The notes beneath the pieces are model-generated. The model was not told the DNA's origin. It made no database searches and saw nothing but the letters and a program-made list of their open reading frames with translations. A program made the position numbers and the translations under genes. From the NCBI GenBank assembly GCA_963665665.1, contig OY762428.1, positions 3,840,001 through 3,904,000 of the forward strand: DNA of 64,000 bases, in the 5' to 3' direction. Source of the DNA: Candidatus Kapaibacterium sp. (GTDB taxonomy: Bacteria > Bacteroidota > Ignavibacteria > Kapaibacteriales > UBA2268). Shown here piece after piece: positions 5,490 to 53,556 of the stretch. Position 1 is the first letter of the stretch. Each line of letters opens with the position of its first letter.

Positions 5490-7793
5490 ATGAAAAACAT
5501 TCTATTAGGGATTGCTATATCCTTTCTGTTTTTAAGTTCTAATGTACTGGCGCAGGAGGTGCTATGGTGGATTTCCGGGATCAGGTTATCAGCTTCTGCT
5601 CCTGTTCACAGGCCCGGCACTGATCTTATTTATATTTTCAAGCAGCAAAGGTCAGGAGGAACCCTCCATGCATTCTGGGAAATCTGGGATTATAAAACGG
5701 GAGAAAAGCAGGGATCAATTCAATCTCCGCAATGGACAGCCAGAAAAGCTGTGATATCAAAGAACGGAAAATATATGGCTGCAACTGAGGCAGGTTATTA
5801 TTCATCCGATATTTATTTTTATGACCTGGAAGCAGGTGAATTTATTGATAAAATTGAAGCAGAGAATGATGGCGAAATGTTTATTTATATCGCTGATTTT
5901 GCGTTTATCGGAAATTCTTCTAATCTTGCAGCTTATGTATATAACTGGCCAAAAATACAAATTTTCAAAGCCCCTGCGGCCTCGGCGGATTATTCACTGG
6001 CCATAGATGAGGGGAAAGTTGACTCTTTCGAATTTTCCGAGGATGCTTCAACGGCTGTAATCCAATATGAAAATAAAAATGTTGACTTTGTGGAAACAGA
6101 AACCGGCATGAAGATTAATTCAATGAATTTTGATTATGAAGGTTATATCTGTGATGTTTCTTCCGATGGAGAAAGGGTTCTTGCTATTGTTACTGACAGT
6201 CTGAACGATAATGACCTTTGCCTGTTCGACTGCCAAAGCGGAGATATTATTGCCAGCTGGGAAAAAGGAATAAGCAGGTCCTTATTATCACCGGACGGAA
6301 AATATATTCTGGCCCAGGAAAACTCATACTCCAGGCTTACGGTATTCAGAACTGATGCACCCGGATTTGAAAGGAATTTTAATAACTTCCTGTTATCAGA
6401 TCAACTTTCTTTCATCGAAGGCAGCAGTGAGATAGTGGCAATCGGAAAAAGAGCAGATATAAATATTCTTAATTATGCTAATGGCGATCTGGTTAATCGG
6501 GTGGGGGAGATTAATGAGAATGTTCAGCTTACCGGAGGAGAGGAAGTGATATTCAGCCCGGACGGAAATTTTCTGGTTTCCGGTACTAACAATGGGATTA
6601 TCAAAGTCTGGATTGCCGAAACCGGCGAACTCTACAAGATGTTTGATTTGTCATCATCGTACATAACCGGTATTGATTTCAAGGATAACGGAAATAAAAT
6701 GGCGGTTACTTCCGCAAAGGGTGATGTATATGTTTTCAATGTTGTTAATAATTTTGAACTGATCCTTGAGCAAACGGATAATTACAGCTATATCGAAGAC
6801 GTGAAATTCCTGCCATCAAAATTTTATGATCTTACTACTCCCTGTTGTGATTTTGAAGAATATTTTTTCTGCTCCTGGCATGGCGGTATATATAACCTGC
6901 CCTGCGGTGGCGGAGATGCCGGCAGAATGGATACTACATGGAAAATGATCCAGACTCTTGATATCTCGCCTGACGGAATGACAATTGTAGCAGGTAGTAA
7001 AGATAAACATGCAAGGGTTTATAAATATAAAGAAAGTATTTTTGGGAACAAACATGAGTTTGATTCTGAATTCAGGGTGTCTTATACAACAAACGAAGGC
7101 CATCTCGGAGTTGTTGAAGTTGATTATTCACCCGATGGCAGCGAAGTGCTGATCGGAACCGGAGGAGACATGGCATTTCGTATTTATGATGCTCAGAATT
7201 TTAATTTGCAAAGAGAATATTACCTTAATACCCAGCCTGCCGGGATATCAACAGGCACGCCGCATTGCTGCCGCTATTTCGATGATGGCAGGAAGTTTCT
7301 TACAGGAGATTTTGCCGGTGGTATCAGGCTATGGGATAAAGAATCAGGCCAGGTTGTATACGCCACTGATATTATGAAACAACACATGGCTGCAAATGGA
7401 TCAGGCACAGACAAAGCTGTTAATAAAATAGCCGTATCCCCCAACGGGCGCTATATAGCTGCTATTGATGATTTCGGGGATGTTGTGGTATTTGATTTCG
7501 AAGATATGCTGACAGATGTTGAAACTAACGATATTGAATTAACAGAAGTTAAAGTTTACCCTCAGCCAAGTTCTGATTTTCTGAATATCAGATTATATTC
7601 TCAAATGAATGTAAACGCTGAGGTTGCAATACATGATAATCTTGGCTGCCTTGTGCAGAAAAGTTCAAAATGGCTTGCGAACGGTACAAATATTATTAGT
7701 CTGAATACTATGGATCTGCCATGTGGCTCTTACATGTATAGTATTCAAACAGGCAACAAAATTTTACAGGGAAAATTTATCGTTTCCAGGTGA
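5490..7793 (+). CDS. WD40 beta-propeller protein with T9SS C-terminal sorting domain
   Basis: Signal peptide; FSPDG..SG..IKVW repeats; VYPQP..LPCGSYMYSIQ..KFIV C-terminal domain. Confidence 0.9.
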   Translation: MKNILLGIAISFLFLSSNVLAQEVLWWISGIRLSASAPVHRPGTDLIYIFKQQRSGGTLHAFWEIWDYKTGEKQGSIQSPQWTARKAVISKNGKYMAATEAGYYSSDIYFYDLEAGEFIDKIEAENDGEMFIYIADFAFIGNSSNLAAYVYNWPKIQIFKAPAASADYSLAIDEGKVDSFEFSEDASTAVIQYENKNVDFVETETGMKINSMNFDYEGYICDVSSDGERVLAIVTDSLNDNDLCLFDCQSGDIIASWEKGISRSLLSPDGKYILAQENSYSRLTVFRTDAPGFERNFNNFLLSDQLSFIEGSSEIVAIGKRADINILNYANGDLVNRVGEINENVQLTGGEEVIFSPDGNFLVSGTNNGIIKVWIAETGELYKMFDLSSSYITGIDFKDNGNKMAVTSAKGDVYVFNVVNNFELILEQTDNYSYIEDVKFLPSKFYDLTTPCCDFEEYFFCSWHGGIYNLPCGGGDAGRMDTTWKMIQTLDISPDGMTIVAGSKDKHARVYKYKESIFGNKHEFDSEFRVSYTTNEGHLGVVEVDYSPDGSEVLIGTGGDMAFRIYDAQNFNLQREYYLNTQPAGISTGTPHCCRYFDDGRKFLTGDFAGGIRLWDKESGQVVYATDIMKQHMAANGSGTDKAVNKIAVSPNGRYIAAIDDFGDVVVFDFEDMLTDVETNDIELTEVKVYPQPSSDFLNIRLYSQMNVNAEVAIHDNLGCLVQKSSKWLANGTNIISLNTMDLPCGSYMYSIQTGNKILQGKFIVSR

Positions 7794-7868: not shown

Positions 7869-8037
7869 ATATTTGGAAGGTATCAAAATATTACATTAAA
7901 ATGCTATTTTTCGAAATTTTGAATCTATGTAGATTTTAGTACCCAATGTTTTATTATCCAATTCAGTTTAAGCCTTCATGCCTACCCATCTTGGCGGCGG
8001 ATTCTTTTTCCGATTGAAGTTATTATAGTTGCTGGAT

Positions 8038-8421
8038 GTCATTCTGAGTGCCAGCGAAGAATCCATTCTTATTACACTATCTAACTAAAGAAGATGGATT
8101 CTTCGGTCGCTTCGCTCCGTCAGAATGACGGATGGGAATGTCCCCCGCTGGCGGGGGTGGACTTCCGGAAAAATTCCCCTCGTTGAGGGATGGCGAGCGC
8201 AGCGAGTTCCCGACACGTCGGGACAGGCTGGGGTGGGTTCTTTTTCTTAGCCTCCCTTATCCACGAGCTAAAGCACGTGGCTATTGAATTTGTCGATTAT
8301 AATGCTGGAAGGTCATTCTGAGCACCAGCGAAGAATCCATTCTTTATACACTATCTGCAAACGAAGATGGATTCTTCGGTCGCAAGCTCCGGAAGCCTGC
8401 CCCGACGTGTCGGGGAATGAC
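8038..8421. repeat. Cluster of REP-like palindromic repeats, some nested
   Basis: Two GTCATTCTGAG..GAAGAATCC / GGATTCTTCG..GAATGAC units (8038-8129, 8312-8421), CCCGACACGTCGGG palindromes, CCCCCGCTGGCGGGGG. Confidence 0.85.
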
Positions 8422-8438
8422 AACATAATACATCCTTC

Positions 8439-8900
8439 TCCGGCCCTTACCCCCCGTTCTTCCACCCCAATGAACAGGCCGCCGGCCTTAATTCCCCAAC
8501 CTGTGGTTCCAATGAACCGGATAATTTCCTTAATTCAATGCTGTTTTGAACCAGAATCCTGATGTATGGGCTAATTGCTTGGATTGCAGGGCTTTAAACT
8601 GCCATGGCAGGGGGTATTGAACTACTGTTTGGCCTTAATGTAATGAAATTTCGCCTTACTGATGTCTTATTCTGCTTCATTGATCACTTGTTCCACATTA
8701 CTGATGTCTTGTTCTGCTTCATTGCTCACTTGGTTTGCCTTACTGTTTGCTTGTTCTGCTTCATTGCTCACTTGTTCCGCATTACTGATGTCTTGTCCGG
8801 CTTCATTGCTTGCTTGTTCGGCTTCATTGCTTGCTTGTTCGGCTTCATTGCTTGCTTGTTCGGCTTCATTGCTTGCTTGTTTGGCTTCATTGCTTGCTTG
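8439..8900. repeat. Tandem 21-bp array (22 units, consensus TTCGGCTTCATTGCTTGCTTG)
   Basis: 12 clear units 8649-8900. The outer degenerate units keep the phase: CCAATGAAC at 8467/8509, CCTTAAT at 8486/8528/8633. Confidence 0.9.
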
Positions 8901-9459
8901 TTTGGCATTGAAATCCCGAAGATACAAATGAGAATAGTATATAGATAGAACTGATAATCAAATATATAGGTAAAATTACTAAATATTATACTATTTATAT
9001 TAAATATATAGTATTTATAATAATATATATAATATATCCAAGCCTTGATATAGTTCATCTAACAAAACTTTTTATATAAATCACAAAATATATTATATAT
9101 ATAATTAAATAATTGATATGATTTATTAAATTCATTTTATAAACTATTAAATATCAGTATTAACCTATTAATTAATCAGTATATCTAATTTGTTAGGACA
9201 ATTAAATATATACTTGGATAATTAATATATTTTATAAAAGAAAAAGAAGAAATTATTAGAAATAGTGATTAATGACTTGTTTAAATTATTTATTTGATTA
9301 GTTATATTATTAATATTGTAAATCTATATGATTATTTAATAATCTGATAAAAATATTTACTACAAACACTTAAATATTTACTGATTTTGAGCATATATTT
9401 AATAATCCAATTTTAATAAATAATACAATTAGTTAAATATTCCGGATTCCAACGCTACA

Positions 9460-9958
9460 CAAGCAATCATTACCACCAACCGAGACAACAATAGAATCAA
9501 ACATTGGTGCTTTGCTCCTGACCCCTCCCAAACCCTCCCCGAAGGGGCGGGCTTTGAAGAAGAATAAGGCAACAACAGAATAAAACATCAGTACTTTGCT
9601 TCCAACCAAGGCAGCAACAGAATCAAACATTGATGCAATAGCTTCAACCAAGAGTTCATTATCATTAAACATTGCTGCAAAAGGTGCAAACAAGACCTCA
9701 ATACTTCTGACCCCTCCCAAACCCTCCCCGAAGGAGAGGGCTTTGATGGAAAACAATGCGGCTTTGGCTCTGACCAAGGCATCATTATCTTCAACCAAGG
9801 CGTCAATGGAATCAACCATTGGTGCATCGGCTTCGACCCCTCCCAAACACACGCGGTGTGGAACCCTCCCCAAAGGAGAGGGCTTTGAAGTAAAACATGG
9901 CAACAACAGAATAAAACATTGATGCAATGACTTCAAACATTGGTGCATTGCTTTCGAC
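9460..9958. repeat. Degenerate 21-bp array (23 unit-lengths +16 bp, consensus CAAGGCAGCAATGACTTCAAA) with embedded hairpin modules
   Basis: Units start CAAG/CATT every 21 bp; CCCTCCCAAACCCTCCCC-AAGG-G-GGGCTTT modules at 9523, 9712 and 9838. Confidence 0.85.
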
Positions 9959-10236
9959 CCTTCCTACCTACCCCTGACACCCTCCTTCGATAGGAGGGGG
10001 AGTTAATTCTATGTTATTTAACTTCTTATCCCTTCCTCGCGGAGGAGGGGAATACAGGGGTGGTTTTCTTTCTTTGCCTCCGGGCGTTGCACCTTTATCC
10101 ACGAGATAGAGAACCTGGCTATTGAATTTATCGAAGGCAGTTGGGGGAGATTCGAAAATAAAGGGAATATCATGTAAAAAATAATAAGGTGTCAGCAAAT
10201 GTGATGGGGATTAGTATACTTTATTGAAATGCAGTT

Positions 10237-10632
10237 TTAATTGGTTTCGCCGATCTCGACAAGGTAGTAATTGGCAAGGTAGCCCGAGTTATAGATATTC
10301 TTCCTGACTTTCACAATGGAAGAATCCTGAACTGAAACATCGTCATTATTGTGCATATCCAGCTTCACTTCAACCTTGGATGAATCGCTGACAGTGATGG
10401 TTCCTAAAGTATTAATCAAATTCTGGTCAACATATAATGATGATTTACCACTTGATTTTATTACACCGTTACTTTCGTTATTGAAATCAGTATTAAATAC
10501 CCTGACATGCATACCATCGCCGATTTTAATTACAGCCCCCTTGTTTACTCCTTTTTGGGCAAACAGTGATGTTTGTACACTAATCAGAGTGAGCATTATT
10601 AGAAGGGCTATATGTATTATTAATTTTATCAT
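10237..10632 (-). CDS. Secreted beta-strand-repeat hypothetical protein
   Basis: Signal peptide MIKLIIHIALL..SLFAQ; start coupled to the stop of the upstream gene; VSDSSKVEVK/VQDSSIVKVR repeats. Confidence 0.75.
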   Translation of the reverse strand: MIKLIIHIALLIMLTLISVQTSLFAQKGVNKGAVIKIGDGMHVRVFNTDFNNESNGVIKSSGKSSLYVDQNLINTLGTITVSDSSKVEVKLDMHNNDDVSVQDSSIVKVRKNIYNSGYLANYYLVEIGETN

Positions 10633-49008: not shown

Positions 49009-49407
49009 TATTTCAATAATTCCACCCAATTGTTTGCAACAGGGCGTACTTATCCATTGCTTTTCCTGAACAAGCCTGTTTTAGCACAAGAAGACAATTT
49101 ACCTGAACAAGTTCTGATACTAATATGATTTCGAATAACTGACAATCAGACTCCTTTTCTTAATTATTTTTCCTTTTTTTCATTAGATACAGCCTGATAT
49201 TTTCGCACTGCCATTTCTCCGCAGTTTTGTTGCCGGTTTTCTTTCAAAATTGTTTTATCAGCCTGAAAAATTCCCCTCCGGCGGAGGGGAATCAGTTGGG
49301 GGAGGGAGTATTAATTTTAAAAGCGGTCATTCTGAAAGAGCGAAGCGACCGAAGAATCCATGTTAAATTGCAGATAATGTATTAAAGATGCGGCCTGGGG
49401 AAGGCGA

Positions 49408-51045
49408 CGTCATTGCCGCCCTGTTTTACTTCAAAGCCCTCTCCTTCGGGGAGGCACGGCCCCTTGCGAGGGTTCCACACTGCGTGTGTTTGTGAGGGGT
49501 CGAAAGCAATGTACCAATGTTCGAAGATATTGCTGCACTGGCCAGAAGCAAAGAAAGAAAACCTCCCCTGTATTCCCCTCCTCCGCGAGGAGGGGATAAG
49601 AAGTTAAATATCATAGAATTAACTCCCCCTCCTTCTGAAGGAGTGGGGCGGGGGGAGGTAGGAAGGATCAGCTGCATTTCACCGATGTTCTAAGTTATTG
49701 CTGCCCTGCTTTTCTTCAAAGCGCTCTCCTTCGGGGAGGGTTTGGGAGGGGTTGGAGTCATTGATGCCTTGTTTGAAGTCATTGCTGCCTTGGTCGGAGT
49801 CATTGCACCAATGTTTTATTCTATTGATGCCTTATTCTTCTTCAAAGCCCTCTCCTTCGGGGAGGGTTTGGGAGGGGTCGGAGTTATTGCTGCCTTGGTC
49901 GACGCTATTGCACAGATGTTTGAAGTCATTGCTGCCTTGGTCGGAGTTATTGCTGCCTTGGTCGGAAGCAAAGTACCGTTGTTTGATTCTATTGTCGCCT
50001 TGTTTGAAGTTATTGATACCTTGTTTAGAGGCAAAGTACTGATGTTAGAAGTCATTTAAATCTTGGTCGGAGATATTGATTGCTTGTGTAGCGTTGAAAT
50101 CCGGAATATTTAAGTGTTTGAATTATTTACAATACTTGAATTATAAAATAAATAATAAGAATTAGTAAATATTTAAGTATTTGTAATAAATATATTTATC
50201 AGATTATTAAATAATCATATAGATTTACAATATTAATAATATAACTAATCAAATAAATAATTTATACAAGACATTAATCACTATTTCTTATAAATTCTCT
50301 TTCTTCTTTTATAAAATATATTAAGTATCCAAGGATATATTTAATTGTCCTAACAAATTAGATATACTGATTAATTAATTGGTTAATACTAATATTTAAT
50401 AGTTTATAAAATGAATTTGATAAATCATATCAATTATTTAATTATATATATAAAATATTTAGTTATACATATAAAAAGTTTTGTTAGATAAACTATATCA
50501 AGGCTTGGATATATTATATAAATTATTATAATTACTATATATTTAATACAAATAGTATAATATTTAATATTTTAGATTGAATATTTGATTATCAGTTCTG
50601 TCTATAGACTTTTCTAATCTGCACATTTGGGATTTTAATGTCAAACAAGCAAGCAGTAAGGCAAACCAAGAAAGCAATGAAGCCGGACAAGTGTGCAGTA
50701 AGGCAAACCAAGCGAGCAATGAAGCGGAACAAGATTTCAATAAGGCAAAACATCCAAGCAATGAAGCGGAACAAGACTTCAATAAGGCGAAACAAGTAAG
50801 CATTGAGGCGGAACAAGCAAGCAATGAAGCCAAATTTCACTACATTAAGGCCAAACAATGCTTCAATACCTCCGGACAAGGCAGTTTAAGGCCCTGCCAA
50901 CAAAGCAATTAGACCAAACATCATGGTTTAGATTAAAAACAGCATTGAATTAAGGAAATTATCCGGTTCATTGAAACCACAGGATGGGGAATTAAGGCCG
51001 GCGGCCTGTTCATTGGGGTGGAAGAACGGGGGGAGAGGGCCGGAG
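49408..51045. repeat. Copy 2 (inverted) of the ~1.6 kb foldback element
   Basis: Reverse complement aligns with 8438-10077; arrays 49667-50086 (20x21 bp) and 50646-51044 (19x21 bp), core 50087-50645 (559 bp). Confidence 0.9.
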
Positions 51046-51149: not shown

Positions 51150-53556
51150 CCTCATTACGAAGTTGTACTTCGCAATGCAGTTTTCTTTTGAAACTAAGCT
51201 TCATAATTCCAAAGTATAACTTTGCAGGAAATTGACCTTCCCAAGTGTAACCTGGGAAGGAGAAAAAAGAATAAAAAGATAAAATCTTGGAAAACAGCTG
51301 CTGTTTTTATAAATTAAGATAATGTTTGATTTGATACGTTTTTGATTAAAACCTTGTGAGGCAGAAATGTATAATTTTAAAGAAAAATATATAAATCCCT
51401 TTACCGATTACGGCTTTAAAAAGCTTTTCGGAGAGGAACCCAATAAAGACCTGCTACTGGATTTCCTGAATGAGCTGTTGAGGGAAGAACAGGGCGAGAT
51501 AAAAGACCTGACCTATCTGAAAAATGAAAACCTGGGCGCTGCCGAAGCAGACCGAAGGGCTATTTTCGATCTTTATTGTGAAAATGAGAAGGGTGAAAAA
51601 TTCATCGTCGAGCTGCAGAAAACCAAGCAGAACTTCTTCAAAGACAGAACGGTTTATTATTCTACATTTCCTATCAGAGACCAGGCACAGCGCGGCGACT
51701 GGAATTATGAGTTAAACCCCGTTTATACAATCGCTGTTCTGGATTTCATTTTCGACGATGACAAAAAAGAACCTGAAAAATTCCGATACAACGTGAAATT
51801 AAGCGATTTGGACAGCCACGAAGTATTCTATGATAAGTGGACATTTATATACCTTGAAATGCCAAAGTTCAACAAAAATATAGATGAGCTTGAAACCCGG
51901 TTTGACAAATGGCTGTATGTACTCAGGAATCTGAACAGGCTGGATCGTGTTCCGGATAAACTTCGTGAAAGAATATTCGAAAAACTTTTCGAAACTGCCG
52001 AGATTGCGAAATTCACTCCCCAACAGGTAATGAATTACGAGGACAGCCTGAAATACTACAGAGACCTGAAAAATTCTATTGACACCGCCCGCGATGAAGG
52101 CAAAGAAGAAGGGTATGAACAAGGTGTCGAGAAAGGAATAGAAAAAGGAAAAATTGATATAGCCAGGAAGATGATTCAAAAAGGAATGTCTGTTGAAATG
52201 ATTATTGAACTGACGGGGATGAGTGAAGGCGATATAAACAGTTTGAAATCACTGGTATGAATCCCAAAGTAAACTTTGGAAACTGATTCCGCAGCAAGCT
52301 GCGGGGTATTTTTTCCCTCCGACTTCGTCGGGATTGTTCGACTATCAAATTTCTTTCTCTTCGTTCATGAAATTTGAGTCTCACGAATAAATTTCCCCCC
52401 CACCGTACCCGATTTATCGGGGAAAGACAAATAGCAAAAATTCTCCTCATTACGAAGTTGTACTTCGCAATGCAGTTTTCTTTTGAAACTAAGCTTCATA
52501 ATTCCAAAGTATAACTTTGCAGGAAATTGACCTTCCCAAGTGTAACCTGGGAAGGAGAAAAAAGAATAAAAAGATAAAATCTTGGAAAACAGCTGCTGTT
52601 TTTTTAAATTAAGATAATATTTGATTTGATACGTTTTTGATTAAAACCTTGTGAGGCAGAAATGTATAATTTTAAAGAAAAATATATAAACCCCTTTACC
52701 GATTACGGCTTTAAAAAGCTTTTCGGAGAGGAACCAAATAAAGACCTGCTACTGGATTTCCTGAATGAGCTGTTGCGAGAAGAACAAGGCGAGATAAAAG
52801 ACCTGACCTATCTGAAAAATGAAAACCTCGGTGCTGCCGAGGCAGACAGACGGGCTATTTTCGATCTGTACTGTGAAAATGAAAAAGGTGAAAAATTCAT
52901 TGTCGAGCTGCAGAAAACCAAGCAGAACTTCTTCAAAGACAGGACGGTTTATTATTCCACATTTCCTATCAGAGACCAGGCACAGCGCGGCGACTGGGAT
53001 TATGAGCTAAACCCCGTTTATATAATCGCTGTTCTGGATTTCATTTTCGACGATGACAAAAAAGAACCTGAAAAATTCCGATACAACGTGAAATTAAGCG
53101 ATTTGGACAGCCACGAAGTATTCTATGATAAGTGGACATTTATATACCTTGAAATGCCAAAGTTCAACAAAACTATAGATGAGCTTGAAACCCGGTTTGA
53201 CAAATGGCTGTATGTACTCAGGAACCTGAACAGGCTGGATCGTGTTCCGGATAAACTTCGTGAAAGAATATTCGAGAAACTTTTCGAAACTGCCGAGATT
53301 GCGAAATTTACCCCCCAACAGGTAATGAATTACGAGGACAGCCTGAAATACTACAGAGACCTGAAAAATTCTATTGACACCGCCCGCGATGAAGGCAAAG
53401 AAGAAGGGTATGAAGAAGGCGTCGAGAAAGGAATAGAGAAAGGAATAGAAAAAGGAAAAATTGATATAGCCAGGAAGATGATTCAAAAAGGAATGTCTGT
53501 CGAGATGATTATTGAACTGACGGGGATGAGTGAAGGCGATATAAACAGTTTGAAAT
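51150..53556 (+). repeat. Tandem duplication of 217-bp leader + Rpn gene (51150-52249 and 52445-53556)
   Basis: Near-identical copies at offset 1295 bp, separated by a palindrome-rich spacer. Confidence 0.95.
51367..52260 (+). CDS. Rpn family PD-(D/E)XK nuclease / putative transposase
   Basis: PFTDYGFKKLFG, IFDLYC..FIVELQK, FIYLEMPKF, EGxEKG repeats, IARKM..IIELTG. Confidence 0.92.
   Translation: MYNFKEKYINPFTDYGFKKLFGEEPNKDLLLDFLNELLREEQGEIKDLTYLKNENLGAAEADRRAIFDLYCENEKGEKFIVELQKTKQNFFKDRTVYYSTFPIRDQAQRGDWNYELNPVYTIAVLDFIFDDDKKEPEKFRYNVKLSDLDSHEVFYDKWTFIYLEMPKFNKNIDELETRFDKWLYVLRNLNRLDRVPDKLRERIFEKLFETAEIAKFTPQQVMNYEDSLKYYRDLKNSIDTARDEGKEEGYEQGVEKGIEKGKIDIARKMIQKGMSVEMIIELTGMSEGDINSLKSLV

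What the first reader, a model, noticed from the sequence alone, without database searches (positions are those of the whole stretch)
8438..10077. Giant tripartite foldback element: 21-bp array / fixed-length AT core / inverted 21-bp array, two copies
Seen: a ~1.6 kb stretch with no credible gene recurs inverted at 49408-51045. In both copies the central core is exactly 559 bp (8901-9459; 50087-50645), below ~20% GC and about 85-90% identical by eye. The two flanking arrays are reverse complements of each other (left rc CAAGCAAGCAATGAAGCCGAA vs right CAAGGCAGCAATGACTTCAAA). Their inner junctions form a 20/25 inverted repeat (8892-8916 vs 9444-9468), so the whole element could fold into a >1 kb rod. 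Inference: I do not recognise this as a REP, CRISPR or IS class. Candidates are a non-autonomous foldback-type mobile element, a long rod-shaped ncRNA, or a centromere/origin-like protein-binding platform (iteron-like arrays around an unwinding-prone core).
Basis: partly seen in the sequence, partly recalled or inferred. Interest (0 to 1): 0.92.

Follow-up and report, generated by a model that had tools for sequence, protein, structure and literature searches.

The report
Dispersed 21-bp lattice repeat family
The stretch is one member of a family of about 55 non-coding repeats, found only in this bacterial genome, that are built throughout on a strict 21-base (two DNA turns) register, an extreme and unusually structured example of an already reported but unexplained kind of bacterial satellite DNA.

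Summary
Two inverted copies exist, each with a 559-bp core (GC 16.6% and 16.3%, 499/559 identical) and a 20/25 junction inverted repeat.

It is not a two-copy oddity. The 5.46-Mb genome holds 16 full cores and 51 copies of the left flank. Most copies lack the core and are about 1 kb: leader, left 21-bp array, palindrome GAACATGTTC, inverted right array, hairpin tail.

The key result is that the whole interior is one 21-bp lattice.
- The leader and the AT core are themselves 21-periodic.
- Left arrays are 19 mod 21 in 14/14 core-bearing copies.
- Leader-to-tail distance is 11 mod 21 in 21/23 core-less and 3/4 core-bearing copies.
- Leader and core carry 10-60x fewer indels per substitution than the neighbouring repeat modules.

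I found no Rfam or Pfam family, no protein homologue, and no copy in 40 relatives or in the genome, metagenome, plasmid or phage collections searched. The coding tests showed no coding signal.

Best reading: a non-coding modular mosaic repeat, akin to BrickBuilt and BOX and to the 20-21-nt constant-size tandem-repeat families. This one has an inverted two-array, foldback layout. The register is probably held by a protein that binds a conserved 9-bp motif every two helical turns; that step is inferred. How it spreads is unknown. It is a new variant of a known kind.

The parts
8258..8312 (+). Module D, upstream copy: a conserved motif of about 34 nt, TTATCCACGAGCTAAAGCACGTGGCTATTGAATTT, plus linker
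   Evidence: 103 copies of the 30-mer (up to 5 mismatches) in the genome. Island grammar is D A LF ... C D. The 30-mer is 96-100% identical and multi-copy in four other genera.
8313..8425 (+). Module A: a long REP-like hairpin (GTCATTCTGAGC...GAATGAC) next to the leader
   Evidence: By eye, most of the 47 upstream sequences printed carry it (4 of 51 copies had no anchor). 48 copies in the genome. Repeat depth is about 140.
8438..8650 (+). Leader (left flank, LF), 213 bp, a degenerate 21/42-bp lattice
   Evidence: 51 copies, 81-94% identical to this one. Autocorrelation at lag 21 is 0.401 and at lag 42 is 0.404, against a mean of 0.262 (sd 0.047), reached by 0/2000 shuffles. 3 gap openings per 1053 mismatches.
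8651..8900 (+). Left 21-bp array, unit GGCTTCATTGCTTGCTTGTTC (the type with variable hexamer GCTTGC)
   Evidence: TRF. Units phased. Length is 19 mod 21 in 14/14 core-bearing copies, range 103-712 nt.
8901..9459 (+). AT-rich core, 559 bp: a degenerate 21-bp array with motif TATTAAATAT
   Evidence: 16 copies with no gap in any of the 559 alignment columns. Pairwise identity 0.79-0.95. Rows of 21 shown. GC 16.6%.
9034..9053 (.). Most conserved island of the core: the near-palindrome ATATCCAAGCCTTGATATAG
   Evidence: At up to 3 mismatches there are 20 hits: the 16 cores, 3 diverged core-like loci and 1 unrelated locus. Column variability is near zero.
9460..9960 (+). Right arm: 21-bp units with the conserved motif inverted (TCRACCAAG), interleaved with hairpin units B
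   Evidence: Core end to module C is 2 mod 21 in 9/12 copies. This copy is 18 because of a 16-nt insert.
9520..9559 (+). Hairpin unit B, part of a 42-nt (2 x 21) in-register unit
   Evidence: Read. 94 B copies in the genome.
9709..9748 (+). Hairpin unit B (42-nt unit)
   Evidence: Read.
9835..9890 (+). Hairpin unit B variant with a 16-nt insert, the only register break in this copy
   Evidence: Alignment with copy 2 shows the 16-nt gap. It accounts for the phase offset seen.
9961..10077 (+). Tail (right flank, module C): two G+C-rich hairpins
   Evidence: About 70-80 copies. Terminator-like hit at 9981-10000.
10094..10129 (+). Module D, downstream copy, the end of the repeat island
   Evidence: Right-end listing. 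Repeat depth falls to 1 at about 10150.
50833..51045 (-). Copy 2 leader (LF)
   Evidence: (G000 3890833-3891045, 89%).
50646..50832 (-). Copy 2 left 21-bp array, 187 nt = 19 mod 21
50087..50645 (-). Copy 2 AT-rich core, 559 bp
49665..50086 (-). Copy 2 right arm, 422 nt = 2 mod 21
49548..49664 (-). Copy 2 tail (module C)
   Evidence: G000 3889548-3889664, 91%.
49300..49547 (-). Copy 2 extra right-arm units, a hairpin unit and a partial module A beyond the tail
   Evidence: repeat depth 19-84.

Best explanation
The 1.6-kb stretch is one of 16 core-bearing members of a family of about 55 non-coding mosaic intergenic repeats. The family covers 75 kb (1.4% of this genome) and was found nowhere else I searched.

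SHOWN.
- Islands follow a fixed, co-oriented grammar: D, A (REP-like hairpin), leader, left 21-bp array, then either the palindrome GAACATGTTC or the 559-bp AT-rich core, right 21-bp array with in-register hairpin units, double-hairpin tail C, D.
- Everything between A and C is one 21-bp lattice (two helical turns).
- The leader and the core are degenerate 21-bp arrays.
- Each array unit has a constant part, including CTTGGTYGA on the left and its complement TCRACCAAG on the right, and a variable hexamer.
- Array lengths differ only by whole units.
- Small indels are nearly absent from leader and core but common in the adjoining modules.

INFERRED.
- It encodes nothing and is not a structured RNA.
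- Arrays grow and shrink by slippage or unequal exchange in 21-bp steps.
- Modules are reshuffled by recombination between copies.
- The family spread into intergenic regions on the 3' side of genes by a trans-acting enzyme, or by recombination, that I could not identify.
- The register is kept because a sequence-specific DNA-binding protein sits on the 9-bp motif on one face of the helix every two turns. The two arrays point towards the centre. The AT-rich core is an optional third array with its own palindromic site.
For: Copy number and modularity:
- 16 cores, 51 leaders and about 70-89 tails.
- Fixed island grammar.
- 55 loci totalling 75,389 nt.

Lattice:
- Core autocorrelation peaks at lags 21/42/63.
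- Leader autocorrelation peaks at 21/42, reached by 0/2000 shuffles. Lag-21 self-identity is raised only from about 8378 to about 9950.
- Left arrays are 19 mod 21 in 14/14 copies, and right arms are 2 mod 21 in 9/12.
- In core-less copies, leader to centre is 10 mod 21 in 26/26. Leader to C is 11 mod 21 in 21/23 core-less and 3/4 core-bearing copies.

Indel control, as gap openings per 100 mismatches: leader 0.28 and core 0.21, against C 2.15, D 2.44, B 8.27 and A 13.8.

Unit structure: unit positions 9-21 are almost invariant within each class, and variation sits at positions 1-8.

Non-coding:
- An in-frame TAA is present in 35/51 leaders. Codon-position variability is 2.63/2.78/3.29.
- Core variability shows no 3-periodicity, 0.079/0.070/0.080.
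- 0 protein homologues.
- Only sub-threshold or borderline coiled-coil hits in Pfam.
- No Rfam family.

Intergenic, on the 3' side of genes: the two neighbours are convergent at 21 of 55 loci, tandem at 28 and divergent at 6.

Genome-wide: 288 of 833 TRF rows have period 21, and a second, unrelated 21-bp array family exists.

Lineage-specific: 0/40 relatives hold the leader. Three patterns in four scans of genome and metagenome contigs found nothing. No plasmid or phage match.

In print:
- Leader, minisatellite, tail MITE in P. gingivalis (PMC4596501, abstract and sections 5 and 7 read).
- Species-specific non-coding 20-21-nt constant-size repeat families with a conserved short motif, for which a polymerising protein was proposed (PMC8161180, abstract and sections 11 and 14 read).
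Against: - No binding protein is identified, and there is no expression or binding data.
- Mobility is not shown. I saw no terminal inverted repeat beyond a 7-nt CCACCCC/GGGGTGG, read by eye. I found no target-site duplication and no empty site.
- The only Y1 transposase with flanking REPs has different REPs.
- The strict register could come from the mutational mode alone, that is whole-unit slippage plus conversion between copies, without any selection.
- At 0.4-1.5 kb, helical phase between the two ends has no physical meaning. Only local register could matter.
- The leader tree does not sort by array type or by core presence, so simple copy-and-paste of whole elements is not supported.
- Several frames are open across whole elements on both strands. 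The outward left frame looks coiled-coil-like: Alanine_zipper scores 25.0 bits against a cut-off of 23.1, with no single stretch passing on its own.
Confidence: 0.6

Rival explanations
1. Neutral satellite only. The register and the lack of indels come purely from how the DNA mutates, by whole-unit slippage, unequal exchange and frequent in-register gene conversion among about 55 copies. No protein reads the lattice and the cell gains nothing.
For: - Length differences are only whole units.
- The core alignment shows mosaic variant blocks.
- The leader tree is not congruent with array type, so conversion or recombination is frequent.
- A second 21-bp family behaves the same way: 9/9 are 7 mod 21.
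Against: - Leader and core are not crisp tandem arrays, so slippage cannot purge indels there. Yet they have 10-60x fewer gap openings per mismatch than modules A, B, C and D in the same islands.
- Unrelated sequences in one genome share the same 21-bp period. The same is reported for other phyla (PMC8161180, section 14 read). This points to a constraint on size, not on sequence.
Confidence: 0.2
2. Foldback nucleic-acid structure. The element acts as a long imperfect hairpin, either as a transcript (a long hairpin RNA, perhaps processed) or as single-stranded DNA during replication or transposition. The inverted arrays exist in order to pair.
For: - MFE of a core-less copy is -334 against -281 +/- 6.4 (z -8.3, 15 shuffles). 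129 of the 143 paired left-array bases pair across the centre.
- Copy 1 has z -6.8 (10 shuffles), and 150/250 left-array bases pair with the right arm.
- Position 5 of the unit tends to agree between arms, counted by eye: left G with right G in 19/21, left T with right T in 18/33.
- The centre is a perfect 10-nt palindrome.
Against: - Arms match at only about 13/21 positions. That gives helices of 8-9 bp separated by 12-nt internal loops.
- Five left-array hexamer types occur with essentially the same right-array unit, so there is no compensatory change.
- Pairing occurs in shifted registers.
- No Rfam match.
- The leader has weak consensus folds, -3.2 and -12.1 kcal/mol.
- The shuffle control does not preserve tandem repetition, so the z-scores overstate the case.
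Confidence: 0.1
3. Protein-coding heptad-repeat genes. 21 bp equals 7 codons, so the arrays would encode small coiled-coil-like proteins. These could be two ORFs converging on the centre, or two ORFs diverging from the central ATG of GAACATGTTC.
For: - Frames are open across arrays on both strands.
- Inward left frame: M(A/S)GGIELLFGLNVVKF followed by LVDLTEH-type heptads.
- Outward left frame: SKVNQVF-type heptads with weak coiled-coil Pfam hits. DUF948 scores 29.9 bits against a cut-off of 37.2, and Alanine_zipper scores 25.0 against 23.1.
- By eye, several changes at the left core edge are synonymous in the inward frame.
- The central ATG is present in 26 of 40 copies classed core-less.
Against: - A TAA stop lies in the inward frame in 35/51 leaders, and codon positions vary equally.
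- 4 of 6 frames open in a 21-mer is about what chance gives (my estimate).
- The heptad types LFDFIPR (a proline in every heptad) and LFGFIAC do not fit one fold.
- Core-bearing copies lack a start for the outward frame (read).
- The 16-nt insert breaks the right-arm frame in copy 1.
- The lattice persists through the AT core, which has no ORF of 30 aa or more lying wholly inside it.
- No homologue among 6,576 word-sharing candidates in a database of 5.8 billion protein clusters, near-length search only.
Confidence: 0.07
4. Replication origin or partition site: iteron-like arrays around an unwinding-prone AT core.
For: Phased 21-bp repeats beside a 16%-GC stretch look like iterons next to a DNA-unwinding element. 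This likeness is recalled from plasmid biology and was not tested here.
Against: - 16 core-bearing and about 37 core-less copies lie on one chromosome.
- No rep, par or dnaA-like gene is adjacent. The neighbours are a WD40 protein with a T9SS sorting tail, a glycosyltransferase and a PDDEXK_2 protein.
- No plasmid or phage similarity.
- GC skew and gene-strand bias place a single origin near 1.9 Mb.
Confidence: 0.02
5. Assembly artefact of a repeat-rich long-read assembly.
For: Short-read contigs do not span the element.
Against: - Repeat pieces occur in the contigs of four runs from two studies, at depths matching the assembled copy numbers.
- 16 cores differ from one another by 5-21%. They are distinct loci, each in its own surroundings outside the repeat island.
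Confidence: 0.01

Closest known systems
BrickBuilt, the minisatellite-bearing MITE of Porphyromonas gingivalis (Klein et al. 2015, PMC4596501; abstract and sections 5 and 7 read)
   Same: - Leader, tandem array without spacers, tail.
- Unit of about two helical turns (23 nt there, 21 nt here).
- Variable copy number (1-22.8 there, about 4-33 here).
- Each unit has conserved and variable halves.
- Dispersed and always intergenic.
- Restricted to one species or genus.
- No gene of its own.
- Annotation pipelines call spurious ORFs in it.
   Different: - BrickBuilt has one direct array. Here two arrays are inverted about a palindrome or about a 559-bp AT-rich third array.
- BrickBuilt has 12-nt IS5-like terminal inverted repeats and some putative target duplications. 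I found none here.
- 19 copies there against about 55 here.
- Here the leader and core are on the same 21-bp register, and hairpin units of 42 nt sit inside the array.
- I did not compare the sequences directly.
Species-specific 20-21-nt constant-size tandem-repeat families (Subirana and Messeguer 2021, PMC8161180; abstract and sections 11 and 14 read)
   Same: - Several families in one genome share the repeat length but not the sequence.
- They are non-coding and species-specific.
- A short sequence is conserved in all repeats.
- The authors note that 21 nt is two turns of DNA, and they propose a polymerising protein or small RNAs.
   Different: - Those papers describe arrays, not a compound element with leader, tail, inverted partner array, AT-rich middle array and hairpin units.
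- The parts I read report no register conservation across non-array parts and no indel deficit.
BOX elements of Streptococcus pneumoniae (Croucher et al. 2011, PMC3049150; passages read)
   Same: - Composite repeat: boxA, a variable tandem array of boxB, boxC.
- Length varies by whole modules.
- Open reading frames form on both strands.
- Predicted stem-loops.
- Dispersed and mostly intergenic.
   Different: - BOX elements are 67-637 bp with a single direct array of boxB. The 45-bp boxB length is recalled, not read.
- BOX elements have terminal inverted repeats and target duplications.
- They have no inverted second array, no AT core and no 21-bp register.
REP/BIME mosaics of enterobacteria (abstracts of PMC3333891 and PMC2817692 seen in the search listing)
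   Same: Mosaic of short palindromic modules with a grammar. They lie in intergenic regions, often on the 3' side of genes, and are known protein-binding sites.
   Different: - BIMEs alternate the orientation of REPs. Here all modules are co-oriented.
- REPs go with a RAYT. The Y1 transposase gene here is flanked by other REPs.
- BIMEs have no long 21-bp arrays.
Foldback (FB) transposons of Drosophila (abstracts of PMC4079207 and PMC3688188 seen in the search listing; the rest recalled)
   Same: Long inverted arms made of short tandem repeats, variable arm length, and an optional middle segment.
   Different: - They are eukaryotic.
- Their arms are close inverted copies, whereas here the arms are about 62% complementary.
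- They are mobilised by a known transposase with target duplications. None of this is shown here.
Plasmid iterons with an adjacent AT-rich unwinding element, and iterated centromere sites (recalled)
   Same: Repeats of 17-22 bp phased on one face of the helix next to AT-rich DNA. Binding by a dedicated protein is what I infer for this element.
   Different: - They occur once per replicon, next to rep or par genes, with 3-10 repeats.
- Here there are about 55 chromosomal copies with up to 33 units and no such gene.

Membership tests
20-21-nt constant-size tandem-repeat families (Subirana and Messeguer) | Repeat unit of 20-21 nt | tested here: met
   TRF gives period 21 in the window. 288 of 833 TRF rows genome-wide have period 21.
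20-21-nt constant-size tandem-repeat families (Subirana and Messeguer) | Several families in one genome with the same length but different sequence | tested here: met
   Left array types, right array, AT core and a second family (GCACGAACCAACGCTAAGACG / GCTCGGGGGAACGCTCGGAAA).
20-21-nt constant-size tandem-repeat families (Subirana and Messeguer) | Species-specific and not part of protein genes | tested here: met
   0/40 relatives. No hits in genome or metagenome contigs. The coding tests showed no coding signal.
20-21-nt constant-size tandem-repeat families (Subirana and Messeguer) | A short sequence conserved in all repeats | tested here: met
   Unit positions 9-21 are invariant within classes. 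CTTG(G/T)T(T/C)G is shared by all left and (as complement) right consensuses.
MITE | Terminal inverted repeats matching an IS of the host | tested here: not met
   In the listings of 47 left and about 40 right ends I saw, by eye, only a 7-nt CCACCCC/GGGGTGG. I made no systematic comparison with IS ends.
MITE | Target-site duplication or empty sites | tested here: inconclusive
   Ends are embedded in other repeat modules. No empty site is available because relatives lack the family. Joints in short-read contigs come from other copies.
MITE | Small, non-coding, multi-copy, intergenic | tested here: met
   55 intergenic loci. At 0.6-3.6 kb per repeat island it is larger than my recollection of typical MITEs.
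BrickBuilt-type minisatellite MITE | Leader, spacer-less tandem array, tail | tested here: met
BrickBuilt-type minisatellite MITE | A single direct array of 23 nt with IS5-like 12-nt TIRs | tested here: not met
   Two inverted 21-nt arrays. I did not see the GAGACC...-type TIR printed in the paper in the end listings.
REP/BIME | REPs in alternating orientation | tested here: not met
   All modules are co-oriented in the listed island grammars, with a single inverted B as the exception.
REP/BIME | A cognate RAYT flanked by the same REPs | tested here: not met
   The Y1_Tnp gene at G000 1821817-1822161 is flanked by different palindromes of about 25 copies.
Foldback transposon | Long, closely matching inverted arms made of tandem repeats | tested here: inconclusive
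   The arms are inverted tandem arrays, but the consensus units match at only 9-17 of 21 positions, mean about 13.
Foldback transposon | Transposase-mediated mobility | not testable with these tools
   No autonomous partner was found. The PDDEXK_2 gene next to copy 2 is not associated with the other copies.
Iteron origin or centromere | One or few per replicon, beside rep or par genes | tested here: not met
   55 loci. Neighbours have no rep or par domains.
CRISPR | Repeats separated by unique spacers | tested here: not met
   Units abut without spacers.
Any Rfam RNA family | Match at the gathering score | tested here: not met
   0 matches in the window. The best sub-threshold E-value is 0.077, to a miRNA model.

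The most novel reading that the evidence does not exclude
The elements are chromosomal landing pads for a filament-forming DNA-binding protein. It reads a 9-bp motif every two helical turns and polymerises inward from both arms towards a palindrome or an AT-rich core. About 55 dispersed copies would then act as nucleoid-organising or insulating sites. That would be the first functional explanation of the enigmatic 20-21-nt constant-size repeats of bacteria. The near absence of indels in leader and core would be the footprint of selection on that register.
Probability: 0.2. Interest if true: 0.85.

Novelty: new variant of a known kind. Interest (0 to 1): 0.55.

Why it matters
Tandem repeats of constant size (20-21 nt) but unrelated sequence have been reported in several bacterial phyla without an explanation. 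This genome is an unusually rich and clean case.
- It has about 55 elements of one family and a second family besides.
- Period 21 accounts for a third of all tandem-repeat calls.
- There is an internal control: 10-60x fewer indels per substitution in lattice parts than in adjacent hairpin modules. This argues that the register itself is constrained.

Together these turn a vague puzzle into a testable one. A defined 9-bp motif, a defined spacing and a defined organism are now available for pull-down, DAP-seq and spacing-mutant experiments.

The inverted two-array layout, with an optional AT-rich middle array, is a compound architecture I did not find described for prokaryotes in two searches and the papers I read.

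Practically, such elements break short-read assemblies and generate spurious ORF calls on both strands.

Tried and rejected
Structured RNA. Rfam at gathering score gave 0 hits in the window. At E up to 1 over 7900-10250 there were three sub-threshold chance-level hits. An alifold of 51 leaders gave weak consensus energies and few compensatory pairs. ARAGORN found no tRNA or tmRNA.

Coding.
- I made a frame-by-frame listing over 51 copies and a codon-position test.
- I listed the long open frames.
- One protein search, near-length only, gave 0 hits. I did not run the 'longer' and 'shorter' searches.
- A Pfam scan of five element ORFs gave only coiled-coil noise.

Relatives and other collections.
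- The leader was absent from all 40 relatives searched.
- The core gave only short AT-rich matches, at best 70% identity over 169 nt, which I read as low-complexity chance.
- Two scans of genome contigs and two of metagenome contigs found nothing. These need exact matches to my patterns, so diverged relatives would be missed.
- Plasmids and phages gave no match.

Transposase links.
- The RAYT-like gene has different REPs.
- The PD-(D/E)XK transposase-like gene next to copy 2 is not near the other copies.
- A 304-aa multi-copy ORF, whose AT-rich leader shares a 24-nt motif with the core, has no Pfam family. I did not follow this further.

Promoters and terminators. The sigma-70-type scan found 16 sites against 9.2 +/- 3.2 expected, all weak. 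The organism probably uses another promoter type, so I drew nothing from it.

Expression. No RNA holder was listed, so nothing can be said about transcription.

Read laying. Only Logan contigs were available. No contig spans the element, and the joints seen have depths typical of other repeat copies. No empty site or strain polymorphism could be read.

Orientation against replication. The apparent split of core-less copies (+ in 0-2.85 Mb, - in 3.0-5.46 Mb) does not match the origin and terminus inferred from GC skew and gene-strand bias. The split was chosen after the fact, so I left it unexplained.

Leader tree against array type. There was no clean sorting. Support values were not examined, so I use this only as a hint of recombination.

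The supplementary tables of the Subirana and Messeguer papers and of the BrickBuilt paper were not seen. They may list further taxa or sequences that bear on novelty.


Full report
THE OBSERVATION. The region 8438-10077 and its inverted partner 49408-51045 align over their whole length with 84% mean column identity. Both cores are exactly 559 bp. Their GC is 16.6% and 16.3%, and 499 of 559 positions are identical. The junction inverted repeat is 20/25. TRF reports 21-bp arrays, and multiples of 21, on both sides of both cores.

SCALE. The window lies at 3,840,001-3,904,000 of a single-contig genome of 5,458,198 bp.
- The 559-bp core occurs 16 times at 82-100% identity. Fifteen copies are 559 bp and one is 557 bp.
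- The 213-bp left flank occurs 51 times and the 117-bp right flank about 70-89 times.
- Most elements, about 37, have no core. They are about 1.0-1.2 kb: leader, left array, a short centre holding the perfect palindrome GAACATGTTC, right array, tail.
- I catalogued 55 loci totalling 75,389 nt, which is 1.4% of the genome.
- Repeat depth rises from 1 at about 8000 and falls back to 1 at about 10150. The repeats therefore fill most of the intergenic gap between a gene ending at 7793 and one ending at 10237.
- Short-read contigs of four runs from two studies hold the pieces at depths that match the assembled copy numbers, and they break at the edges of the island. This is not an assembly artefact.

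GRAMMAR. I split the island into modules:
- D: a motif of about 34 nt with CCACG-N9-CGTGG
- A: a long REP-like hairpin
- LF: the leader
- the arrays, with or without the core
- B: a hairpin unit of 42 nt
- C: the double-hairpin tail

The order and polarity are nearly always D A LF ... B ... C D. Modules can be missing or tandemly multiplied, and only one inverted module appeared in all the island strings listed.

Module D is old. Its 30-mer is 96-100% identical and multi-copy in four other genera of the same family, and it has 103 copies here. The leader was found in none of the 40 relatives searched. The core gave only short AT-rich matches there.

THE LATTICE. This is the main finding.
- The core is not a foreign insert of arbitrary sequence. 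Its consensus has autocorrelation peaks only at lags 21, 42 and 63 (0.49, 0.46, 0.48; mean 0.365, sd 0.037). Written in rows of 21, it shows a recurring TATTAAATAT motif.
- The leader is periodic too. Lag 21 gives 0.401 and lag 42 gives 0.404, against a mean of 0.262 and sd of 0.047, and 0 of 2000 shuffles reach these values.
- Along copy 1, lag-21 self-identity is above background only from about 8378 to about 9950, that is exactly between modules A and C.
- Left-array length is 19 mod 21 in 14 of 14 core-bearing copies that have a leader, over a range of 103-712 nt.
- The distance from core end to the first C module is 2 mod 21 in 9 of 12 copies. Copy 1 is off by 16 because of a 16-nt insert in one hairpin unit (9835-9890). 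Two others have only distant C modules.
- In core-less copies the leader-to-palindrome distance is 10 mod 21 in 26 of 26.
- The leader-to-C distance is 11 mod 21 in 21 of 23 core-less copies and in 3 of 4 core-bearing copies. The fourth is copy 1, with its 16-nt insert.
- Hence the 559-bp core plus its arrays occupies the same register as the core-less interior.

INDEL CONTROL. I counted gap openings per 100 mismatches among near-full-length copies:

| Module | Gap openings per 100 mismatches | Counts |
|---|---|---|
| Leader | 0.28 | 3 per 1053 |
| Core | 0.21 | 2 per 968 |
| C | 2.15 | |
| D | 2.44 | |
| B | 8.27 | |
| A | 13.8 | |

Indels do arise and persist in this genome's other repeat modules, but hardly at all in the lattice parts that are not crisp arrays. 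Slippage cannot explain that.

UNIT ANATOMY. Across 593 phased left units, unit positions 9-21 are nearly invariant within each class, and variation sits at positions 1-8. The classes differ in a hexamer: GAACAC, GAGGAC/GAGGTC, CCACGC, GACAGC, or GCTTGC and its kin. The last group goes with the core-bearing copies. The consensus of the right array, reverse-complemented, shares CTTG(G/T)T(T/C)G and a few more positions with the left unit. The match ranges from 9 to 17 of 21 positions, with a mean of about 13. So the arms are inverted arrays of a related unit and not close inverted copies.

IS IT A GENE? I think not.
- Four of six frames are open in the unit, about what chance gives for 7 codons.
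- The inward left frame has a TAA in 35 of 51 leaders, and its three codon positions vary alike, 2.63/2.78/3.29.
- Core variability has no 3-periodicity.
- The heptads differ too much for one fold. LVDLTEH, LFDLTED, LFDFIPR (a proline in each heptad) and LFGFIAC all occur.
- The outward frames start at the central ATG in core-less copies but have no start in core-bearing ones.
- The 16-nt insert breaks the right-arm frame in copy 1.
- A protein search found nothing.
- Pfam gave only coiled-coil-type noise for one outward frame.
- The lattice persists through the AT core, where no ORF of 30 aa or more lies wholly inside.
- BOX elements are also reported to form open frames on both strands (PMC3049150, passages read).

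IS IT A FOLDED RNA OR DNA? Predicted folds are more stable than dinucleotide shuffles, with z -8.3 for a core-less copy and -6.8 for copy 1. The left array pairs mainly with the right arm. However:
- The helices are 8-9 bp, separated by large internal loops.
- Registers slip by whole units.
- The shuffles destroy the tandem repetition, so the control is lenient.
- Five left hexamer types face essentially one right unit, so there is no compensation.
- A mild association at unit position 5 between the arms, which I counted by eye, could equally reflect shared ancestry.

There is no Rfam family, and the leader has no convincing consensus fold.

IS IT MOBILE? The evidence is indirect. There are 55 dispersed intergenic copies that relatives lack. 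Divergent, promoter-bearing gaps are under-represented: the two neighbours are divergent at 6 of 55 loci, convergent at 21 and tandem at 28. This used crude stop-to-stop ORFs of 200 codons or more.

I found no terminal inverted repeats, no target duplication and no partner transposase. The Y1 transposase gene has its own REPs. The PD-(D/E)XK gene beside copy 2 is not near the other copies. The leader tree does not sort by array type or core presence. The core alignment also shows mosaic blocks. Recombination between copies is therefore frequent.

GENOME-WIDE CONTEXT. Period 21 accounts for 288 of 833 TRF rows, and periods 42, 63 and 84 add 83, 56 and 33 more. A second family with unrelated units and its own leader consists of two direct arrays. 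In it the leader-to-junction distance is 7 mod 21 in 9 of 9 loci that have both anchors.

This is exactly the phenomenon Subirana and Messeguer described: several species-specific, non-coding families of 20-21 nt in one genome, each with a conserved short motif. They suggested a protein that polymerises on DNA, or small RNAs (PMC8161180; abstract and sections 11 and 14 read).

The nearest described compound element is BrickBuilt of P. gingivalis. It has a leader, a 23-nt minisatellite and a tail, occurs 19 times and is intergenic. It has IS5-like ends and bidirectional promoter activity (PMC4596501; abstract and sections 5 and 7 read).

VERDICT. This is a non-coding, genome-specific, modular repeat built on a strict 21-bp register. 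It is a new variant of known kinds.

New relative to what I read:
- the inverted two-array layout
- the optional AT-rich third array
- the register running through leader and core
- the indel deficit

I favour a phased DNA-binding protein as the reason for the register. That step is inferred and no protein is identified. A purely mutational explanation remains the main rival. How the family spreads is unknown.

Noticed in passing
G000:C1:235702-236291 (outside the window); also near 1574018, 2720713, 2870627, 3994235, 4357729, 4735823, 4754682 and 4903588: A second, unrelated family of 21-bp arrays. It has a conserved leader, then array 1 (GCACGAACCAACGCTAAGACG), a short junction, and array 2 (GCTCGGGGGAACGCTCGGAAA) in direct orientation. 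The leader-to-junction distance is 7 mod 21 in 9 of 9 loci that have both anchors.
   Followed up: partly
window 8258-8292 and 10094-10129; L083 (G009), L084 (G007), L085 (G020): The 30-nt motif ATCCACGAGCTAAAGCACGTGGCTATTGAA (module D) has 103 copies in this genome. It is 96-100% identical and multi-copy in at least four other genera of the family. In G007 it often occurs as inverted pairs about 110 bp apart. Such conservation across genera suggests the end of a shared mobile element or a protein-binding site.
   Followed up: partly
whole genome G000: Core-less copies point + in 0-2.85 Mb (18 of 21) and - in 3.0-5.46 Mb (14 of 18). GC skew and gene-strand bias place the origin near 1.9 Mb and the terminus near 4.9 Mb. 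The split was chosen after the fact and is borderline after correction. Core-bearing copies show no such pattern.
   Followed up: partly
G000:C1:4923544-4925584 and five further copies (for example 3453477-3455536 and 4943206-4945070): A 2-kb repeat made of a 1.1-kb AT-rich leader and a 304-aa ORF with no Pfam family. The leader shares CTTGATATAGTTYATCTAACWAAA, and about 72% identity over about 120 nt, with the 559-bp core. Two copies are split by an inserted repeat carrying a 273-aa ORF that I took for an IS3-type transposase by recall. One copy lies 256 bp from a core-less element.
   Followed up: partly
G000:C1:2032444-2034374: A diverged seventeenth core (72-77% identical), split by about 1.5 kb that carries the same 273-aa ORF. 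It is flanked on one side by arrays of a longer period and a different unit. So the AT-rich core can occur with other arms.
   Followed up: partly
G000:C1:1821817-1822161 (L080): A Y1 (IS200/RAYT-like) transposase gene flanked on both sides by its own palindromic repeats of about 25 copies. These are unrelated to the modules of the element studied.
   Followed up: yes
window 51367-52260 and 52662-53555: Two tandem, 97%-identical genes of the PD-(D/E)XK nuclease-family transposase type (PF12784), directly beside copy 2. There are further copies elsewhere, and they are not associated with other elements.
   Followed up: yes
window 9835-9890: Hairpin unit B normally fills exactly 42 nt (2 x 21). 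This copy has a 16-nt palindromic insert (CACACGCGGTGTGGAA), which is the only break of the 21-bp register in copy 1. The same variant occurs beyond the tail of copy 2 (about 49440-49500).
   Followed up: partly
G000:C1:1353142-1356730: One locus carries the tail modules C and D as a higher-order tandem repeat. The string C D recurs about nine times after a core-less element.
   Followed up: no
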